Source: Holophagales bacterium UBA5704 (GTDB taxonomy: Bacteria > Acidobacteriota > Thermoanaerobaculia > Multivoradales > UBA5704). From it: DNA of 64,000 nt. The notes beneath the pieces were generated by a model. The model was not told the DNA's origin. It ran no database searches and saw nothing but the letters and a program-made list of their open reading frames with translations. How positions within the stretch are numbered: the first letter of the stretch is position 1; every line of letters begins with the position of its first letter. The position numbers and the translations under genes are program-made. Below are positions 43,984 through 48,293 of the stretch, one piece after another. The stretch spans positions 18,296 to 82,295 of the forward strand of contig DIHE01000157.1 in the NCBI GenBank assembly GCA_002420005.1, in the 5' to 3' direction.

Positions 43984-44033
43984 TCCCCGGGAGCACTTGT
44001 CCTTTTGAAGCGCTTCTTTCCTGGAGGACCCAC

Positions 44034-45503
44034 ATGCCCGAACCGAAACCAACCCCGGAAGGGGCCACCCTGCGATTTTTCCGCTTCGCGGAGGGGCTGG
44101 CCGAGAGCCAGCTGGGCAAACCGAACGGATTGGCGGAACAGACGATCGGCCGCCTCGAAAACGGCAAGGGACCCCTCCCGGTCGGCCGGATTGTGAAGCT
44201 GCTGTCCCCGTGGAAGGTTCCGCGCGAGGCGATCGAGACCGCCTTGCTCGCCCTCGAGATATCCCGTCCACCGGCCGATCCCGGGGCACCCACCGCGCCG
44301 ACGGCCGGCGAACGTCTGGCGCTCCAGGCGGCCGCCGTCGCAGCCGGCACGGCCTCCCTCCGGGCCACCCGCACCGTGCTGACCCGGGAGAGCCACCGCC
44401 GCCATGCCCGGCGGCACCGGCGCTGGGCGCAGAAGATCTGGGCGCGCCTCGCGCGTCTGCCGGAGAAACCCCAGGAAGCGGAGATCCAGGCGCTGCTCGG
44501 GGAGCCGAAGAGCTGGGCCTTGGCGGAACGGCTGGCCTGGGCCTCCGAGATCGCCGCGGCGGATCGCGCCAGCGAAGCCTTGCGCCTGGCTCGGCTCTCT
44601 CTGCGCGTGGTGGCGGCGAGCCCCGGGCCGGAGCTCTGGCTTCTGCGGCTGCGCGGCGCCCTGGAGCCTTTTCACGGCAACGCCCTGCGGGTCTCCGGCG
44701 ACCTGCCGGCCTCCGAAGCGTCGTTCGACCTCGCCGACGATTGCTGGAAACGCGGGGCCGGCGGTGACCCCGGCCAGCTCCTCGACGGCAGGCGGCCGCT
44801 CGACCTGAAGGCTTCTTTGCTCCGCCAGCGCGGAAGATTCGACGAAGCGATCCAGTTGCTCGACCGCGCCCTCGCCGCAAGCCCACCGAAAGCAGCGGCG
44901 CGCCTGTTGATCAAGAAGGCAGCCACCTACATTCGGGCCGGGGAGTACAAGCTGGCTCTCGAAGTTCTGGATCAAGCGGAGCCGAAGATCGACGAGTGGG
45001 GTGAGCGGCGGCTTTTGCTGGTGCATCGCTTCAGCCGCGCGAACAGCCTGTGCCACCTGGACCGTTATGCTGATGCCGAAGCATTGTTGCCATTGGTTGA
45101 CACGCTGACCGCAGAACTGGGAAATGAGCTGGACAAGCAGAGGACCCGCTGGCTACTAGGGCGAACCTGTCGGGGCCTCAACCGCTGGGTTGAAGCGCTC
45201 GCTGCGCTGAGTAAGGTGCGGGCGTATTTCCGCGACAAGCAGATCGCCTACGACTACGCCTTGGCCAGCCTGGAAGTGGCGGAGATCTACCTGGAGCAGG
45301 GCCAGACCCGGCTCGTCCAAGCGCTGGCCGAGGAGATGCTATGGCTCTTCAATGGGCAGAAGGTTCACAAAGAGGCCCTGGCGGCACTGACACTTTTCTG
45401 CCGTGCCGCCGAGGCGGACGTGCTCGAGCCGGAGTGGACCCGGCACCTGATCAAGTACCTCTACCGGGCGCAGTACAAGCCTGAGCTACGGTTCGAGCCG
45501 TGA
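44034..45503 (+). CDS. Transcriptional regulator: N-terminal XRE-like helix-turn-helix, C-terminal TPR-like helical repeats
   Basis: GGAGGA lies 6 nt upstream of the ATG. The N terminus LRFFRFAEGLAESQLGKPNGLAEQTIGRLENGKGPLPVGRIVKLL fits the XRE HTH pattern. The C-terminal ~250 aa is made of helical A/L-rich repeats (e.g. GRFDEAIQLLDRALA, GEYKLALEVLDQA, RYADAEALLPLV, WVEALAALSKV). Confidence 0.65.
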   Translation: MPEPKPTPEGATLRFFRFAEGLAESQLGKPNGLAEQTIGRLENGKGPLPVGRIVKLLSPWKVPREAIETALLALEISRPPADPGAPTAPTAGERLALQAAAVAAGTASLRATRTVLTRESHRRHARRHRRWAQKIWARLARLPEKPQEAEIQALLGEPKSWALAERLAWASEIAAADRASEALRLARLSLRVVAASPGPELWLLRLRGALEPFHGNALRVSGDLPASEASFDLADDCWKRGAGGDPGQLLDGRRPLDLKASLLRQRGRFDEAIQLLDRALAASPPKAAARLLIKKAATYIRAGEYKLALEVLDQAEPKIDEWGERRLLLVHRFSRANSLCHLDRYADAEALLPLVDTLTAELGNELDKQRTRWLLGRTCRGLNRWVEALAALSKVRAYFRDKQIAYDYALASLEVAEIYLEQGQTRLVQALAEEMLWLFNGQKVHKEALAALTLFCRAAEADVLEPEWTRHLIKYLYRAQYKPELRFEP

Positions 45504-45516
45504 AGGCAGTTGTGTC

Positions 45517-45831
45517 TTAGCCGCCGCAACGCCCACTGGGGTCCATTTCGCACCCGTTGTCGAGGGTCTCCGGGTAAGCTCTTGGCGCGCAACGCCCGCT
45601 GGGGTCAACCTCGCACCCGTTGTCGAGGGTCGCCGGAGCCTGCCGCGGCGCACAGCCGCCGTCAGGGTCAAACTCGCACCCGTTGTCGCCCCAGGCGGTG
45701 GTGAGGAAGGTCCAGAGGTCACCGAGGAAGCCCCAGGGCGCCGGGGTGGCGGGCTCGGCGGCGTGGAGGGGTGGGGCCGCGAGGAGCAGAGTGAGGACGA
45801 GGAGGCCGGTTTTCGTGAGAGGACGGACCAT
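45517..45831 (-). CDS. Small secreted peptide precursor (104 aa) with three tandem Cys-loop repeats
   Basis: ATG at 45831 with GGAG 6 nt upstream (minus strand ctGGAGcttgtcATG). Sec-type signal MVRPLTKTGLLVLTLLLAAPPLHA/AEP. Then an aromatic stretch WGFLGDLWTFLTTAWG, followed by DNGCEFDPDGGCAPRQAPATL, DNGCEVDPSGRCAPRAYPETL and DNGCEMDPSGRCGG-stop. I verified the translation codon by codon. The stop lies 13 nt from the convergent regulator stop. Confidence 0.6.
   Translation of the reverse strand: MVRPLTKTGLLVLTLLLAAPPLHAAEPATPAPWGFLGDLWTFLTTAWGDNGCEFDPDGGCAPRQAPATLDNGCEVDPSGRCAPRAYPETLDNGCEMDPSGRCGG
45520..45687 (-). repeat. 63-bp (21-codon) in-frame tandem repeat inside the peptide gene, 2.7 copies
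   Basis: Units at 45625-45687, 45562-45624 and 45520-45561 (truncated). Each encodes D-N-G-C-E-x-D-P-(D/S)-G-(G/R)-C. Confidence 0.85.
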
Positions 45832-45964
45832 GACAAGCTCCAGACGGGACGCGCTCCGCGGGAGCCTCCATGGCCGCCGGGACGCCTCCCGGCCTCCAGA
45901 TTGACAGGACCCGGCGCGGAAACCGGACGAAACGACCCCACAACGTAGGCTTTTCGAGCGGTGA

Positions 45965-46556
45965 CGGGCGGTTGGGGCAAGACCGGCAGGCGGGCTCCGC
46001 CCGAGGTCTGAGAGACTCAGACGTCGGGCGGAGTGGCCCGGATCGCGGGCGGAGAGGTCTGGACGTCGGGCGGGGGTACCCCCGCCCACGGGCGGAGTGG
46101 CCCGGATGTCGGGCGGAGGGGCTCCGCCCGCGAGCGGAGGGACCCGGACCTCGGGCGGAGGGTCCCGGATCGCGGGCGGAGGGACCCCTCCCCGCGGGCG
46201 GAGCAGCCCGGATCTCGGGCGGAGCCTCTCCGCCCGCGGGCGGAGGGACCCCGGCTCTCGGGCGGGGAGACTCGGATCGAGAGCGGGGAGGCCCGGATCG
46301 AGAGCGGGGAGGCGTGGACCGAGAGCGGAGAGGCGTGGACCGAGGGCGGAGAGGCCCGGGCCGAGAGCCGGCCGACCCGGGCCGAGACCCCGGAGGCCCC
46401 TCCCGAGAGCGGCGAGGCGCGCACCGAGAGCCGGGAGACCGGCACCGAGGGCGGAGCGGCGAGGATCGGGAGCGGGGAGGCCCGGACCTGGAGCCGGGAG
46501 GCTCGGATCGCGGGCGGATGGGCCACGGCCGAGGGCGGAGTGGCCCGGATCGAGGG
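45965..46556. repeat. Degenerate tandem array, ~28 units of 21-22 bp (core CGGGCGGAG / GAGAGCGGNGAGGCCCGGATC)
   Basis: The GCGG/GCCG anchor recurs at 46028, 46049, 46070, 46092, 46113, 46134, 46155, 46176, 46198, 46219, 46240 and 46262. From 46262 to 46535 it recurs every 21 nt exactly. Three units are 22 nt. All six frames are open across the array. Confidence 0.85.
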
Positions 46557-46584
46557 AAAGTACGACGACGGTCCCTCCCTGCCG

Positions 46585-46779
46585 TCAATCGCCCGTGCCC
46601 TCCCACCCACGGTCAGCGGTCCACCAGACCCCTTCGCCGGCACCGGGCGCAATCAGGTCCGCTGCATCGGCGGGGAGGCCTTCGGCCCAAGCGGCGAAAC
46701 CGGCGTCGGCCACCTCGAGGCTCTCCGGATGGGGCTGCCGGAGCGATTGCCGAAGCTGGTCGGTGCGGGCATTCGGCAT
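46585..46779 (-). CDS. Hypothetical small protein (64 aa); coding status uncertain
   Basis: ATG at 46779 is preceded on the minus strand by AGGAGAcggagccATG, a strong SD. It lies 52 nt downstream of the GT-A-like gene on the same strand and stops ~30 nt before the repeat array. An overlapping plus-strand frame has similar third-position GC, so this is a weak call. Confidence 0.3.
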   Translation of the reverse strand: MPNARTDQLRQSLRQPHPESLEVADAGFAAWAEGLPADAADLIAPGAGEGVWWTADRGWEGTGD

Positions 46780-46831
46780 GGCTCCGTCTCCTGACCGATC
46801 ATCCTCTGAATCCTTCTGAGTATACCTGCTT

Positions 46832-47695
46832 TCACGACCCCAGCCGCCGCTTCAGCTCGGCAGCCGCCAGGCTCCACCAGGGGCAGCCCGGCGCCGGCAC
46901 CGTCGTGAGCGCCACCGGCTCGGCTCCGGCCGCAGCGCGGGCCCACCCGGCGTAGAGCGGCAGCAGGGCACGCCGGGGGGTGACGAAATGCAGGGCGACG
47001 AGACCCTCCGGCGGCGTGAACCGCTCGCCCGGCAGCCGCACCCGGGACGGATCGACGAACCGGCAGCCGTGCCGCGCACCGAGGAGAGCCCAGGCGGTCT
47101 GCTCCACCCAGACCGGCGTCCGGTGGTACGCGGGATGCGCCAGGAACCACTCCAGCAGATCCGCGTCATACGCCGCGCGGGGAAACCCTACGATCCCGGT
47201 GTTGACGAACCCCGCGAGACGCAGGCGCGGCTCGCGCAGCACCTGCCACGAACGCACGGAGTAGGCGTGCTGGGTGTCGTGCAGGAACACCGTCTCGCCC
47301 TCGGCCCCCCACAAGCCGGAGAACGGCCGGAAGAAGAGGACGTCGGTGTCGCAGAACAGCAGGCGTTCCTCGGCACCGAGCACCGCCGCATCGACCAGCT
47401 TGAGCCCGAGCGGGTTCGTGCGCCGAAGCTCCCGCGTGGCCGGGCGGGCGGCCAGATGCTCCGCCAGACGCTCCTCGGCGTCGCCCCGCGCCACGATCTC
47501 CGGCTCCGCCAGACCCTCCGCCAACCGCGCCCGGTCCTCCCCGGTCAACGTCCCGTCGTCATGCAGCCGCAAGCGCACCGGCTCGGCCGCATGGGCCAGC
47601 AGGCTCCCCAGACAGAGCAGCGCCATGTCCACGTGAGAGTGGCCGAGGAGGGAGGTCACGACCAGCGGTGCCTGCACCCTCGGACCATACCACAT
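46832..47695 (-). CDS. GT-A-fold glycosyltransferase-like protein (GT8-like DxD)
   Basis: N-terminal strand PLVVTSLLGH, LLFCDTDVLFFRPF (DxD) and FVNTGIVGFPR. 287 aa from ATG 47695, and that ATG lies inside direct repeat R1. Confidence 0.55.
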   Translation of the reverse strand: MWYGPRVQAPLVVTSLLGHSHVDMALLCLGSLLAHAAEPVRLRLHDDGTLTGEDRARLAEGLAEPEIVARGDAEERLAEHLAARPATRELRRTNPLGLKLVDAAVLGAEERLLFCDTDVLFFRPFSGLWGAEGETVFLHDTQHAYSVRSWQVLREPRLRLAGFVNTGIVGFPRAAYDADLLEWFLAHPAYHRTPVWVEQTAWALLGARHGCRFVDPSRVRLPGERFTPPEGLVALHFVTPRRALLPLYAGWARAAAGAEPVALTTVPAPGCPWWSLAAAELKRRLGS

Positions 47696-47723
47696 ATACT
47701 CGCACGTATAAGGAGACCAACCG
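47638..47723. repeat. 86-bp direct repeat, copy R1
   Basis: Matches 48208-48293 with 6 mismatches (counted by eye). The offset is exactly 570 nt at both ends. It contains the 5' end of the GT-A-like gene and a degraded copy of the vapBC promoter, operator and SD. Confidence 0.9.
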
Positions 47724-48207: not shown

Positions 48208-48293
48208 AGTGGCCGGCGAGGGAGGTCACGACCTGCGGTGCTTGCACCCTCGAACCATACCACATATACTCGCACGTATAAGGAGGCCAACCG
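48208..48293. repeat. 86-bp direct repeat, copy R2
   Basis: See R1. This copy carries the intact promoter/SD of vapB and a 24-codon dead-end duplicate of the GT-A-like N terminus (MWYGSRVQAPQVVTSLAGH...stop). Confidence 0.9.
48242..48270 (+). promoter_or_regulatory. Sigma-70-type promoter of vapBC with overlapping palindromic operator
   Basis: TTGCAC (48242-48247) - 17 nt - TATACT (48265-48270). Palindrome TATAC-tcgcac-GTATA at 48265-48280. SD AGGAGG at 48281-48286 lies 7 nt before TTG 48294. Confidence 0.5.

What the first reader, a model, noticed from the sequence alone, without database searches (positions are those of the whole stretch)
45965..46556. ~28-unit tandem array with a strict 21-bp phase immediately upstream of the peptide gene
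Seen in sequence:
- A degenerate unit (5' half CGGGCGGAG, later GAGAGCGG(G/A)GAGGC(C/G)(C/T)GGA(T/C)C) repeats head to tail from ~45965 to ~46556.
- Anchor positions are 21 nt apart in all but three units, which are 22 nt. From 46262 to 46535 the phase is exactly 21 nt for 14 units.
- The array fills most of the gap between the small ORF ending at 46585 and the peptide gene start at 45831, all on the minus strand.
- All six frames are open.
- Third-position GC enrichment fits two mutually antisense frames equally well: plus-strand heptads E-S-G-E-A-R-I and minus-strand I-R-A-S-P-L-S. I therefore cannot decide from composition whether it is translated.

Inference: 21 bp is two helical turns, so repeated sites would lie on one DNA face. 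That would suit cooperative binding of a regulator, such as the adjacent HTH-TPR protein, in an iteron-like array. Alternatives are a heptad-repeat low-complexity protein, a structured RNA leader, or a hypervariable minisatellite. I compared the 63-bp period of the peptide repeats (3 x 21) with the array by eye and found no sequence similarity.
Basis: partly seen in the sequence, partly recalled or inferred. Interest (0 to 1): 0.6.

Follow-up and report, generated by a model that had tools for sequence, protein, structure and literature searches.

The report
Dispersed non-coding 21-bp minisatellite element
The 21-base repeat array is real, but it is one of about 15 copies of a non-coding repeat element in this soil acidobacterium, whose genome and relatives hold dozens of similar 21-base arrays, so it is not shown to be a control region built for the neighbouring peptide gene.

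Summary
There are 26 head-to-tail units at 46003-46551, with 22 spacings of 21 bp and 3 of 22 bp.

The array is not unique to this locus. The whole ~590-bp block recurs collinearly at 15-16 intergenic loci of the same genome, at 72-83% identity. No copy of this element was found in five same-genus species, 91 same-family genomes or three public collections.

Its edges here are rearrangement junctions:
- Left: an 89%-identical copy of the regulator and peptide genes on another contig ends exactly where the array starts, and has no array.
- Right: the array is fused to the first ~12 codons of a truncated mazF toxin gene. The "small ORF" is a decayed antitoxin.

Coding and conserved-RNA readings are not supported.

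A whole-genome census shows a wider class. Of 527 tandem-repeat loci, 188 have period 21. Seventy-nine are long and non-coding, falling into at least 8 multi-locus sequence families. Sister species carry their own 21-bp families.

The class is about 3-fold enriched within 2 kb of HTH-TPR genes (P = 0.001). Protein docking therefore remains possible but unproven.

The closest known element is the BrickBuilt minisatellite-MITE. I tested for terminal inverted repeats and found none.

The parts
45960..45994 (+). Leader of the element (GGTGACGGGCGGTTGGGGCAAGACCGGCAGGCGGG). It resembles the 3' tail of a second, more abundant interspersed repeat that I call Rep-A.
   Evidence: Homology with the C51 paralogous module ends at 45959. 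The leader is conserved in copies C100, C195, C198 and C31. It is shared with a subset of Rep-A copies.
45995..46033 (+). Long left-end hairpin: CTCCGCCCGAGGTCTGAG-AGA-CTCAGACGTCGGGCGGAG.
   Evidence: It is paired in the minimum-free-energy folds of both strands. The sequence is present in most copies, usually with one or two mismatches.
46024..46261 (+). First half of the array: 11 units with a CGGGCGGAG core, spaced 21 or 22 bp, with a 64-bp higher-order repeat. Three sites form perfect 9-10-bp-stem palindromes (46068-46087; 46110-46130; and 46216-46236, which overlaps a second palindrome at 46228-46245).
46262..46545 (+). Second half of the array: 13-14 units of the type GAGAGCSGGGAGNCYCGGAYC in strict 21-bp phase, with a 63-bp higher-order repeat.
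   Evidence: Between copies, the only indels seen in this half are 21 bp long.
46546..46584 (-). Remnant of a PemK/MazF toxin gene. Only about 12 codons remain (..GGTVVVLSLDP). It joins the array through the shared bases CGGATCG.
   Evidence: Window 46546-46768 is 76% identical to G005:C58. The intact neighbour there matches Pfam PF02452 with E = 1.5e-10.
46585..46779 (-). The 'small ORF'. It is a decayed MazE-type antitoxin that has lost its N-terminal DNA-binding part through an internal deletion.
   Evidence: Alignment with the 100-aa protein of G005:C58. That protein gives weak YlcI/YnfO, MazE and CcdA matches.
45517..45831 (-). Secreted Cys-loop peptide gene. This is context and not part of the element.
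   Evidence: The paralog on C51 is 85% identical.
44034..45503 (+). HTH-TPR regulator gene. This is context and not part of the element.
   Evidence: TPR domains by Pfam. There are 63 tblastn hits (E < 1e-8) on 40 contigs of the genome.

Best explanation
The array is one copy of a dispersed, non-coding, satellite-like element.

Architecture. The element has a ~75-bp leader holding a long hairpin, about 25 head-to-tail 21-bp units, and a short tail. Each unit has a weak internal dyad (GRGC-N6-GCYC).

What is shown:
- The block of units was built once and then spread as a whole to about 15 intergenic sites of this Thermoanaerobaculia genome.
- Copies have since drifted to 72-83% identity.
- Copies gain and lose whole 21-bp units.
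- In the window, the element lies at a rearrangement junction. To the left is the end of a duplicated regulator-peptide module. To the right is a mazF toxin gene cut off after about 12 codons.
- The element belongs to a genome-wide and genus-wide class of non-coding 21-bp-period arrays built from many unrelated unit sequences.

What is inferred:
- Unit gain and loss occurs by slipped-strand mispairing.
- Dispersal occurs by recombination at short homologies or by an unidentified enzyme acting in trans.
- The element's main local effect is passive. It is GC-rich, hairpin-dense spacer DNA that may block read-through between the decayed toxin-antitoxin genes and the peptide gene.
- The peptide-regulator pair does not need the array.

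Why the period is 21 bp across families remains unexplained.
For: Copy number and collinearity:
- BLAST finds whole-length collinear matches on 10 other contigs plus fragments.
- A profile search finds 15-16 loci.
- Position-matched units in different copies are 74% identical. Different units within one copy are 61% identical.

Non-coding:
- No ORF with genome-typical codon-position GC overlaps any copy.
- Copies differ by 1-nt indels in the first half.
- Variability is lowest at the shared third codon position of the two high-GC3 frames. Entropies by frame position are 0.53, 0.49 and 0.61.
- Five array ORFs have no Pfam match.

Junctions:
- C51:135-2087 is 89% identical to window 44005-45959, then runs into an unrelated XRE-type regulator gene.
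- The mazEF homolog in G005:C58 defines the right edge at about 46546.

Absence from relatives:
- No real match in 40 relatives.
- One marginal match in 91 same-family genomes.
- No true homolog turned up in the genome, metagenome or viral collections. The specific patterns gave zero hits.
- Homology of the BamA-like gene beside the C198 copy stops at the element edge in all five sister species.
- The syntenic glycan locus of G005 has a 1.4-kb ORF where this genome has the regulator, peptide gene, array and antitoxin remnant.

The wider class:
- 188 of 527 tandem-repeat loci have period 21.
- 79 loci are long and non-coding, and at least 8 families occur at several loci.
- Sister genomes carry other 21-bp families.
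- For the CGGGCGG core, hits at spacing 21 in the six genus genomes are 57/20/16/21/14/8. At spacing 24 they are 2/5/0/2/4/2, and at spacing 18 they are 4/3/2/4/3/9.
Against: - No terminal inverted repeats, no target-site duplication and no cognate transposase were found. The way the element spreads is therefore unknown.
- One period shared by unrelated unit sequences, in several species, is hard to explain by neutral drift alone.
- 21-bp arrays are enriched within 2 kb of HTH-TPR genes: 11 of 79 against 3.4 expected, P = 0.001. Rep-A elements show no such enrichment. Some link to those loci therefore exists.
- One array of another family lies upstream of a peptide gene, in the same layout, in a sister species (G005:C39).
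Confidence: 0.6

Rival explanations
1. Phased protein-docking array. Each 21-bp unit presents a short dyad on the same face of the helix (two turns apart). A dimeric DNA-binding protein coats the array cooperatively. The protein could be one of the roughly 60 HTH-TPR paralogs or a nucleoid protein. The array would then act as an operator bank, a decoy or an insulator.
For: - The 21-bp period is held across unrelated unit families and across species.
- Most families carry a short palindrome in each unit.
- Arrays are about 3-fold enriched within 2 kb of HTH-TPR genes, and Rep-A elements are not.
- For the window's family alone, 3 of 15 copies lie within 2 kb (P = 0.009).
- G005:C39 repeats the layout of regulator, peptide gene and array with a different unit.
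Against: - The 89%-identical regulator-peptide module on C51 has no array.
- Two regulators that are 84% identical (C100 and C129) are followed by arrays of different families.
- Only 14% of the long arrays are near such genes, and only 1 of 22 array loci sampled in relatives.
- The dyad in this copy is weak, with many A-C mismatches. Covariation between the paired positions is marginal (P = 0.05).
- Variation within units is mostly transitions (R or Y positions), which is the pattern expected from drift.
- The window copy sits at a gene-truncating junction.
Confidence: 0.25
2. Transcribed non-coding RNA. The array would be made into a hairpin-rich RNA. Possible roles are a 3' or 5' UTR stabiliser or terminator, a protein sponge carrying about 50 GGA motifs, or a precursor cut into 21-nt pieces.
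For: - Both strands fold better than shuffled sequence (z = -6.7 and -4.8).
- Many copies abut the 3' ends of genes, with gaps of 5-55 nt.
- The plus strand is strongly purine-rich.
Against: - No Rfam match for the element.
- The consensus fold of 8 copies has a covariation term of +5.64, meaning no support, and stems are simply broken in some copies.
- Orientation relative to the upstream gene is not constant.
- No promoter-like or terminator-like site lies in 45400-47000.
- Across all long arrays, the contexts are 33 tandem, 17 divergent and 18 convergent, which is close to the baseline.
Confidence: 0.08
3. A heptad-repeat protein (plus-strand ESGEARI or minus-strand IRASPLS) is translated from the array.
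For: Period 21 equals 7 codons. Four of the six frames are open.
Against: - Third positions of those frames are the least variable among paralogs.
- Copies differ by 1-nt indels.
- There is no conserved start.
- No Pfam family matches.
- All frames are open mainly because the DNA is 75-80% G+C.
- No copy lies in an ORF with genome-typical codon statistics.
Confidence: 0.03
4. Assembly artefact: a spurious loop in the k-mer graph of a short-read metagenome assembly.
For: The genome is a 207-contig metagenome-assembled genome (MAG). Seven long arrays lie within 300 bp of contig ends, and one copy carries a run of N.
Against: - Units are only about 69% alike, and their order is reproduced at 15 loci with different flanks.
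- Graph loops give perfect repeats.
- Arrays of the same class occur in sister assemblies with few contigs, for example G002 with 30 contigs.
Confidence: 0.02

Closest known systems
BrickBuilt minisatellite-MITE of Porphyromonas gingivalis (Klein et al. 2015, PMC4596501)
   Same: Both are tandem units of about two helical turns (23 nt there, 21 nt here) with no spacers, flanked by conserved leader and tail segments. Copy number per genome is similar (19 there, 15-16 here). Both are always intergenic and restricted to one species.
   Different: BrickBuilt has small inverted-repeat ends and promoter activity. I tested for terminal inverted repeats and found none. No promoter-like site was found. 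Here the element is one of at least 8 families that share one period, and it is very GC-rich.
BOX elements of Streptococcus pneumoniae (PMC3049150)
   Same: Both are modular interspersed repeats, with conserved end modules around a variable number of tandem internal modules. Both can disrupt genes and create open frames on both strands.
   Different: boxB is about 45 bp and usually present in only a few copies per element. BOX ends resemble the inverted repeats of ISSpn2. There is no sequence relation to the element here.
STAR elements of Staphylococcus aureus (PMC3532100)
   Same: Both are GC-rich, intergenic direct repeats that occur at many loci. They expand and contract locally, and their function and means of spread are unknown.
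   Different: STAR has a 14-bp motif separated by spacers of about 40 bp that differ between loci. Here the units are contiguous and whole arrays are collinear between loci.
REP/BIME elements and their RAYT transposases (PMC3184786, PMC3733652)
   Same: Both are hairpin-forming, GC-rich intergenic repeats that can occur in tandem clusters, often at the 3' ends of genes.
   Different: The units carry no GTAG or CGTC tag. The three Y1-transposase genes of this genome are flanked by other palindromes, not by this element.
Iterons and centromere-like site arrays (R6K, pSC101, sopC of plasmid F). This comparison rests on my own knowledge.
   Same: Both are direct repeats spaced about two helical turns apart.
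   Different: Iteron and centromere arrays are single arrays tied to one replicon and one cognate binding-protein gene. Here there are about 79 chromosomal arrays, and this array does not travel with its neighbouring regulator.

Membership tests
Minisatellite-bearing MITE (BrickBuilt type) | Many dispersed, intergenic, non-coding copies in one genome | tested here: met
   15-16 loci, all intergenic.
Minisatellite-bearing MITE (BrickBuilt type) | Spacer-free tandem units between conserved leader and tail segments | tested here: met
   The alignment of 10 copies shows a shared leader, collinear units and a shared tail (..GGGCGCACCGGCCCCGCCGGAGGCC..).
Minisatellite-bearing MITE (BrickBuilt type) | Terminal inverted repeats | tested here: not met
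   No inverted pair joins the two ends of the full-length C198 copy.
Minisatellite-bearing MITE (BrickBuilt type) | Target-site duplication | tested here: inconclusive
   In the window, the two flanks come from different ancestral loci and share only TCGAG. The C195 copy has a ~30-70-bp flanking direct repeat of unclear origin. No empty site was available for a clean test.
Minisatellite-bearing MITE (BrickBuilt type) | A transposase in the host with matching ends | not tested
   Only Y1 transposases were examined. A related array in G057 lies beside what I read by eye, from my own knowledge, as an IS1595-like transposase fragment; I ran no family search on it.
REP/BIME with RAYT | Association with a RAYT (Y1 transposase) gene flanked by the same palindromes | tested here: not met
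   Three PF01797 genes are flanked by different palindromes and give no match to this element.
REP/BIME with RAYT | GTAG or CGTC tetranucleotide tag at one end of the palindrome | tested here: not met
   Neither tag appears at fixed unit positions in the position table of 263 units.
Operator or iteron array of the adjacent HTH-TPR regulator | The array travels with the regulator gene in paralogs and orthologs | tested here: not met
   The C51 paralog (88% protein identity) lacks it. Paralogs on C100 and C129, 84% identical, carry different array families.
Operator or iteron array of the adjacent HTH-TPR regulator | Specific binding of the regulator to each unit | not testable with these tools
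   This needs EMSA, footprinting or DAP-seq.
Operator or iteron array of the adjacent HTH-TPR regulator | Statistical association of arrays with regulator genes | tested here: met
   11 of 79 arrays lie within 2 kb, against 3.4 expected (P = 0.001). In relatives the count is only 1 of 22.
Heptad-repeat protein gene | One frame preserved among paralogs, with excess variation at third codon positions | tested here: not met
   Copies differ by 1-nt indels, and third positions of the high-GC3 frames are the least variable.
Known RNA family (Rfam 15) | Match to a covariance model, or covariation support for a consensus structure | tested here: not met
   No hit with E <= 1 for the window copy. The C198 copy gave only chance matches, to eukaryotic miRNA precursors and two other families, far below their thresholds. 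The covariation term is +5.64.
CRISPR array | Repeats separated by unique spacers, with cas genes nearby | tested here: not met
   Units are contiguous. The only link to CRISPR is that one copy lies about 200 bp from an unrelated CRISPR array.

The most novel reading that the evidence does not exclude
These Thermoanaerobaculia may run an undescribed chromosomal system of helically phased, 21-bp palindrome arrays. There would be dozens per genome, in many sequence families, each family read by its own DNA-binding protein. The greatly expanded HTH-TPR peptide-sensing regulators are possible readers. The arrays would then serve as operator banks, decoys or insulators at the borders of regulator-peptide cassettes, rather than being junk DNA.
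Probability: 0.17. Interest if true: 0.8.

Novelty: new variant of a known kind. Interest (0 to 1): 0.5.

Why it matters
For this locus, the result removes an attractive but unsupported idea. The array is not shown to be part of the regulator-peptide circuit, and the circuit should be studied without assuming that it is.

For the genome, the result joins findings that had been read one at a time. About 80 long non-coding arrays, all with a 21-bp period but with unrelated unit sequences, make up a satellite-like layer of DNA that is unusual for a bacterium. Sister species share the period but not the sequences.

Two explanations are open, and both are worth knowing:
- A protein may read two-turn phased dyads.
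- A repeat-generating process may have a fixed 21-nt step.

Both can be tested with array DNA and cell extracts, or by comparing strains.

The arrays also mark rearrangement junctions and contig breaks. This matters when assembling and annotating these common soil bacteria, because gene callers will readily call false ORFs across them.

Tried and rejected
Rejected readings:
- Coding. I examined five long ORFs over the array. None has a Pfam match. The codon-position variability test points the wrong way. No ORF with genome-typical statistics covers any copy.
- Known RNA. Rfam E-value scans of the window copy and the C198 copy gave nothing meaningful. One scan covered the wrong coordinates and was repeated. 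RNAalifold gave no covariation support.
- Hairpin selection within units. Stem positions 2-15 and 4-13 are mostly G-C, but covariation at positions 3-14 is marginal (P = 0.05). Mutual information between positions mostly reflects the two unit subtypes.
- RAYT/REP link. The Y1 transposase genes have their own palindromes.
- Terminal inverted repeats. None found.
- Promoter or intrinsic terminator in 45400-47000. None found.

Searches outside this genome:
- Two specific patterns gave zero hits in 185,579 species genomes and zero in viral contigs.
- An 18-nt pattern was too short.
- A 21-spaced CGGGCGGAG pattern returned mostly unrelated coding heptad repeats in other phyla.

Other points:
- The link to the neighbouring peptide gene's 63-bp repeats (3 x 21) was not tested.
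I therefore had no RNA-seq, no long reads and no strain comparison.
An unbiased census of repeat periods could be made only for the window's own genome.

Full report
**1. The observation**

The region is a genuine tandem array.
- Tandem Repeats Finder reports 46025-46556 with period 21, 25.2 copies and 69% matches. Overlapping higher-order periods are 64 and 106 in the first half and 63 in the second.
- The self-match at lag 21 is 0.64, against a mean of 0.35.
- Chaining the units gives 26 units at 46003-46551, with 22 spacings of 21 bp and 3 of 22 bp.
- From 46262 the phase is exactly 21 bp.
- The DNA is 75-80% G+C, and the plus strand is purine-rich.
- Four of the six frames, not all six, are free of stops.

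**2. The array is not unique**

- The 592-bp stretch matches 10 other contigs of the same 8.0-Mb genome over nearly its whole length at 72-83% identity. There are also shorter copies.
- A profile built from the copies finds 15-16 loci and nothing else.
- The copies are collinear. They share the same leader, the same order of unit variants and the same tail.
- Units at matching positions in different copies are more alike (74%) than different units within one copy (61%).
- The block was therefore assembled once and then spread as a whole.
- In the second half, copies differ only by 21-bp indels. In the first half they also differ by 1-nt indels.

**3. The edges in the window are junctions**

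Left edge:
- Contig C51 carries an 89%-identical copy of window 44005-45959, which holds the HTH-TPR regulator, the peptide gene and its upstream region.
- That homology ends at 45959. C51 then continues into an unrelated XRE-type regulator gene and has no array.

Right edge:
- Window 46546-46768 is 76% identical to a locus in a same-genus genome, G005:C58.
- That locus encodes a 100-aa antitoxin followed by a PemK/MazF toxin (Pfam PF02452, E = 1.5e-10).
- The window keeps only about 12 codons of the toxin (..GGTVVVLSLDP). They are fused to the array within the shared bases CGGATCG.
- The 64-aa "small ORF" at 46585-46779 is the antitoxin with its N-terminal part deleted.

In the syntenic glycan locus of G005, a 1.4-kb ORF lies where this genome has the regulator, peptide gene, array and antitoxin remnant.

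**4. Not coding, and no support for a structured RNA**

- No copy overlaps an ORF with the genome's usual codon-position GC pattern.
- The five long ORFs across the array have no Pfam match.
- Among paralogs, the shared third codon position of the two high-GC3 frames is the least variable (entropy 0.49, against 0.53 and 0.61).
- Rfam gives nothing for the window copy or for a full-length copy.
- Both strands fold better than shuffled sequence (z = -6.7 and -4.8). This is expected from the palindromes.
- The consensus fold of eight copies has a positive covariation term (+5.64), and its stems are simply broken in some copies.
- Orientation relative to neighbouring genes is not constant.
- No promoter-like or terminator-like site lies in 45400-47000.

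**5. Distribution of this family**

- Five same-genus species and 35 other relatives have no real match.
- Ninety-one same-family genomes give one marginal hit.
- Two specific patterns find nothing in 185,579 species genomes or in viral contigs.
- Beside the C198 copy, a BamA-like gene is conserved in all five sister species. Its homology stops at the element edge, and those species have short, different intergenic DNA there.
- By the record titles of its closest relatives, the organism is a soil Thermoanaerobaculia (Acidobacteriota).

**6. The wider class**

The marginal hit, in G057, is a 10-unit 21-bp array. Its unit GAGAGCGGGGAGCTCCGCATC matches 17 of 21 bases of a second-half unit variant seen in other copies (GAGAGCGGGGAGGCTCGGATC). 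Sister species also hold multi-locus, non-coding 21-bp arrays with other unit sequences and with 42/63-bp higher-order repeats.

Those arrays were found with a 21-spaced pattern, so the search was biased. I therefore ran two controls.

Control 1, spacing of the CGGGCGG core, allowing up to 2 mismatches, in the six genus genomes:

| Spacing | G000 | G001 | G005 | G003 | G004 | G002 |
|---|---|---|---|---|---|---|
| 21 bp | 57 | 20 | 16 | 21 | 14 | 8 |
| 24 bp | 2 | 5 | 0 | 2 | 4 | 2 |
| 18 bp | 4 | 3 | 2 | 4 | 3 | 9 |

Control 2, an unbiased Tandem Repeats Finder census of the whole genome:
- 188 of 527 tandem-repeat loci have period 21. By comparison, 31 have period 18 and 54 have period 24.
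- 79 of the 159 arrays of at least 100 bp have period 21.
- The arrays of period 20-22 include at least 8 families that occur at several loci. The window's family is the second largest.
- Only 3 of the 86 long arrays lie inside a convincing ORF.
- After merging, there are 79 long non-coding loci covering 19.9 kb.
- Their contexts are 33 tandem, 17 divergent and 18 convergent, close to the baseline of 64%, 18% and 18%.
- Most families carry a short palindrome in each unit.

Earlier notes of this scan had described two other 21-bp arrays in this genome as separate local binding platforms. They belong to the same class.

**7. Associations**

Counts are measured against random non-coding positions:

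| Test | Observed | Expected | P |
|---|---|---|---|
| Long arrays within 2 kb of an HTH-TPR gene | 11 of 79 | 3.4 | 0.001 |
| Long arrays within 300 bp of a Rep-A copy | 9 of 79 | 0.96 | < 0.001 |
| Rep-A copies within 2 kb of an HTH-TPR gene | 1 of 67 | 3.0 | 0.96 |

- Rep-A is a second repeat of about 65-95 nt with at least 67 copies. It is also present in sister species.
- The leader of the window's family resembles the 3' tail of some Rep-A copies. A full Rep-A is fused to the C198 copy.
- Most of the arrays near an HTH-TPR gene (9 of 11 array rows) lie beyond the regulator's 3' end.
- Two regulators that are 84% identical (C100 and C129) are followed, 24-55 bp after the stop codon, by arrays of different families.
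- In relatives, only 1 of 22 sampled arrays lies near such a gene. That one, G005:C39, repeats the window's layout with a different unit.

**8. Reading**

The best-supported reading is a dispersed, non-coding minisatellite element that sits at a rearrangement junction and is not needed by the regulator-peptide pair.

How it spreads is unknown.
- It has no terminal inverted repeats.
- No clean target-site duplication was found.
- The Y1 transposases of the genome have their own, different palindromes.

The shared 21-bp period and the modest enrichment near HTH-TPR genes keep a protein-docking model open. I put that at about 0.25 as a rival and 0.17 in its strongest form.

The closest described element is BrickBuilt of Porphyromonas gingivalis. 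It has 23-nt units without spacers, a leader and a tail, 19 copies, and is always intergenic and species-specific. The element here fails BrickBuilt's inverted-repeat criterion, so I file it as a new variant of that kind and not as a member.

**9. Limits**

- An artefact is unlikely. The units are diverged and their order recurs at 15 loci.
- The gene calls in my scripts are crude: ORFs of at least 100 aa filtered on GC3, giving 3,885 genes.
- The period census covers only the window's own genome.

Noticed in passing
L370:2935-3000 (G000 contig C198:12275-12340); another copy lies on the window's contig, outside the window, at C91:89483-89547: A second interspersed repeat, which I call 'Rep-A'. 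It is about 65-95 nt long, with at least 67 copies in this genome and dozens in same-genus genomes. Its consensus is about GGCCGGGCCTTCGGCCCATTCTTCTTGAATGCCGGCGAGACGCCAGCGCTCCCAGGGGGCG, with three short hairpins. It has no Rfam match. It lies within 300 bp of 21-bp arrays about 9 times more often than expected.
   Followed up: partly
window 46546-46779: A decayed toxin-antitoxin pair. The antitoxin has lost its N-terminal part, and the PemK/MazF toxin is cut off after about 12 codons by the array.
   Followed up: yes
window 44005-45959, compared with G000 contig C51:135-2087: The regulator-peptide module is duplicated at 89% DNA identity on another contig. Both ends of the duplication are sharp.
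   Followed up: partly
window 47638-47723 and 48208-48293: An 86-bp direct repeat at 93% identity brackets the lower-GC segment. It was seen as a self-hit in BLAST.
   Followed up: no
G000 contig C195:9650-10600: A CRISPR array (repeat GTTTCAATCCACGCCCCCGCGCGGGGGGCGAC) with cas2 and cas1 genes. One copy of the 21-bp element lies about 200 bp beyond its far end. That copy is flanked by a ~30-70-bp direct repeat (..CTCGAACCGGC.TCTCGAATCGGCAGGCACCT).
   Followed up: no
G000 contigs C131:49892-50236, C49:68544-68882, C190:13033-13377: Three Y1 (IS200/RAYT-type) transposase genes. Each is flanked on both sides by its own inverted palindromes, which are unrelated to the 21-bp arrays.
   Followed up: partly
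L507:1669-2040 (G000 contig C129:9668-10039) and G000 contig C100:195044-195636: Two HTH-TPR paralogs that are 84% identical are each followed, right after the stop codon, by a 21-bp array. The arrays belong to different families (one has the hairpin GGTGCAG-CCA-CTGCACC, the other is the window's family). Homology between the two loci ends at the stop codon.
   Followed up: partly
L416:1-2250 (G005 contig C39:2100-4350): A sister species has the same layout of HTH-TPR gene, convergent Cys-loop peptide gene and 21-bp array about 340 bp upstream of the peptide gene. The unit there is unrelated (CGACCTTCGGGTCAAGCCGCT).
   Followed up: partly
L388:1500-1705: In a genome of another genus of the same family (G057), a 10-unit 21-bp array whose unit matches 17 of 21 bases of a second-half unit variant found in other copies of this family lies next to what looks, by eye, like the C-terminal fragment of an IS1595-like transposase.
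   Followed up: no
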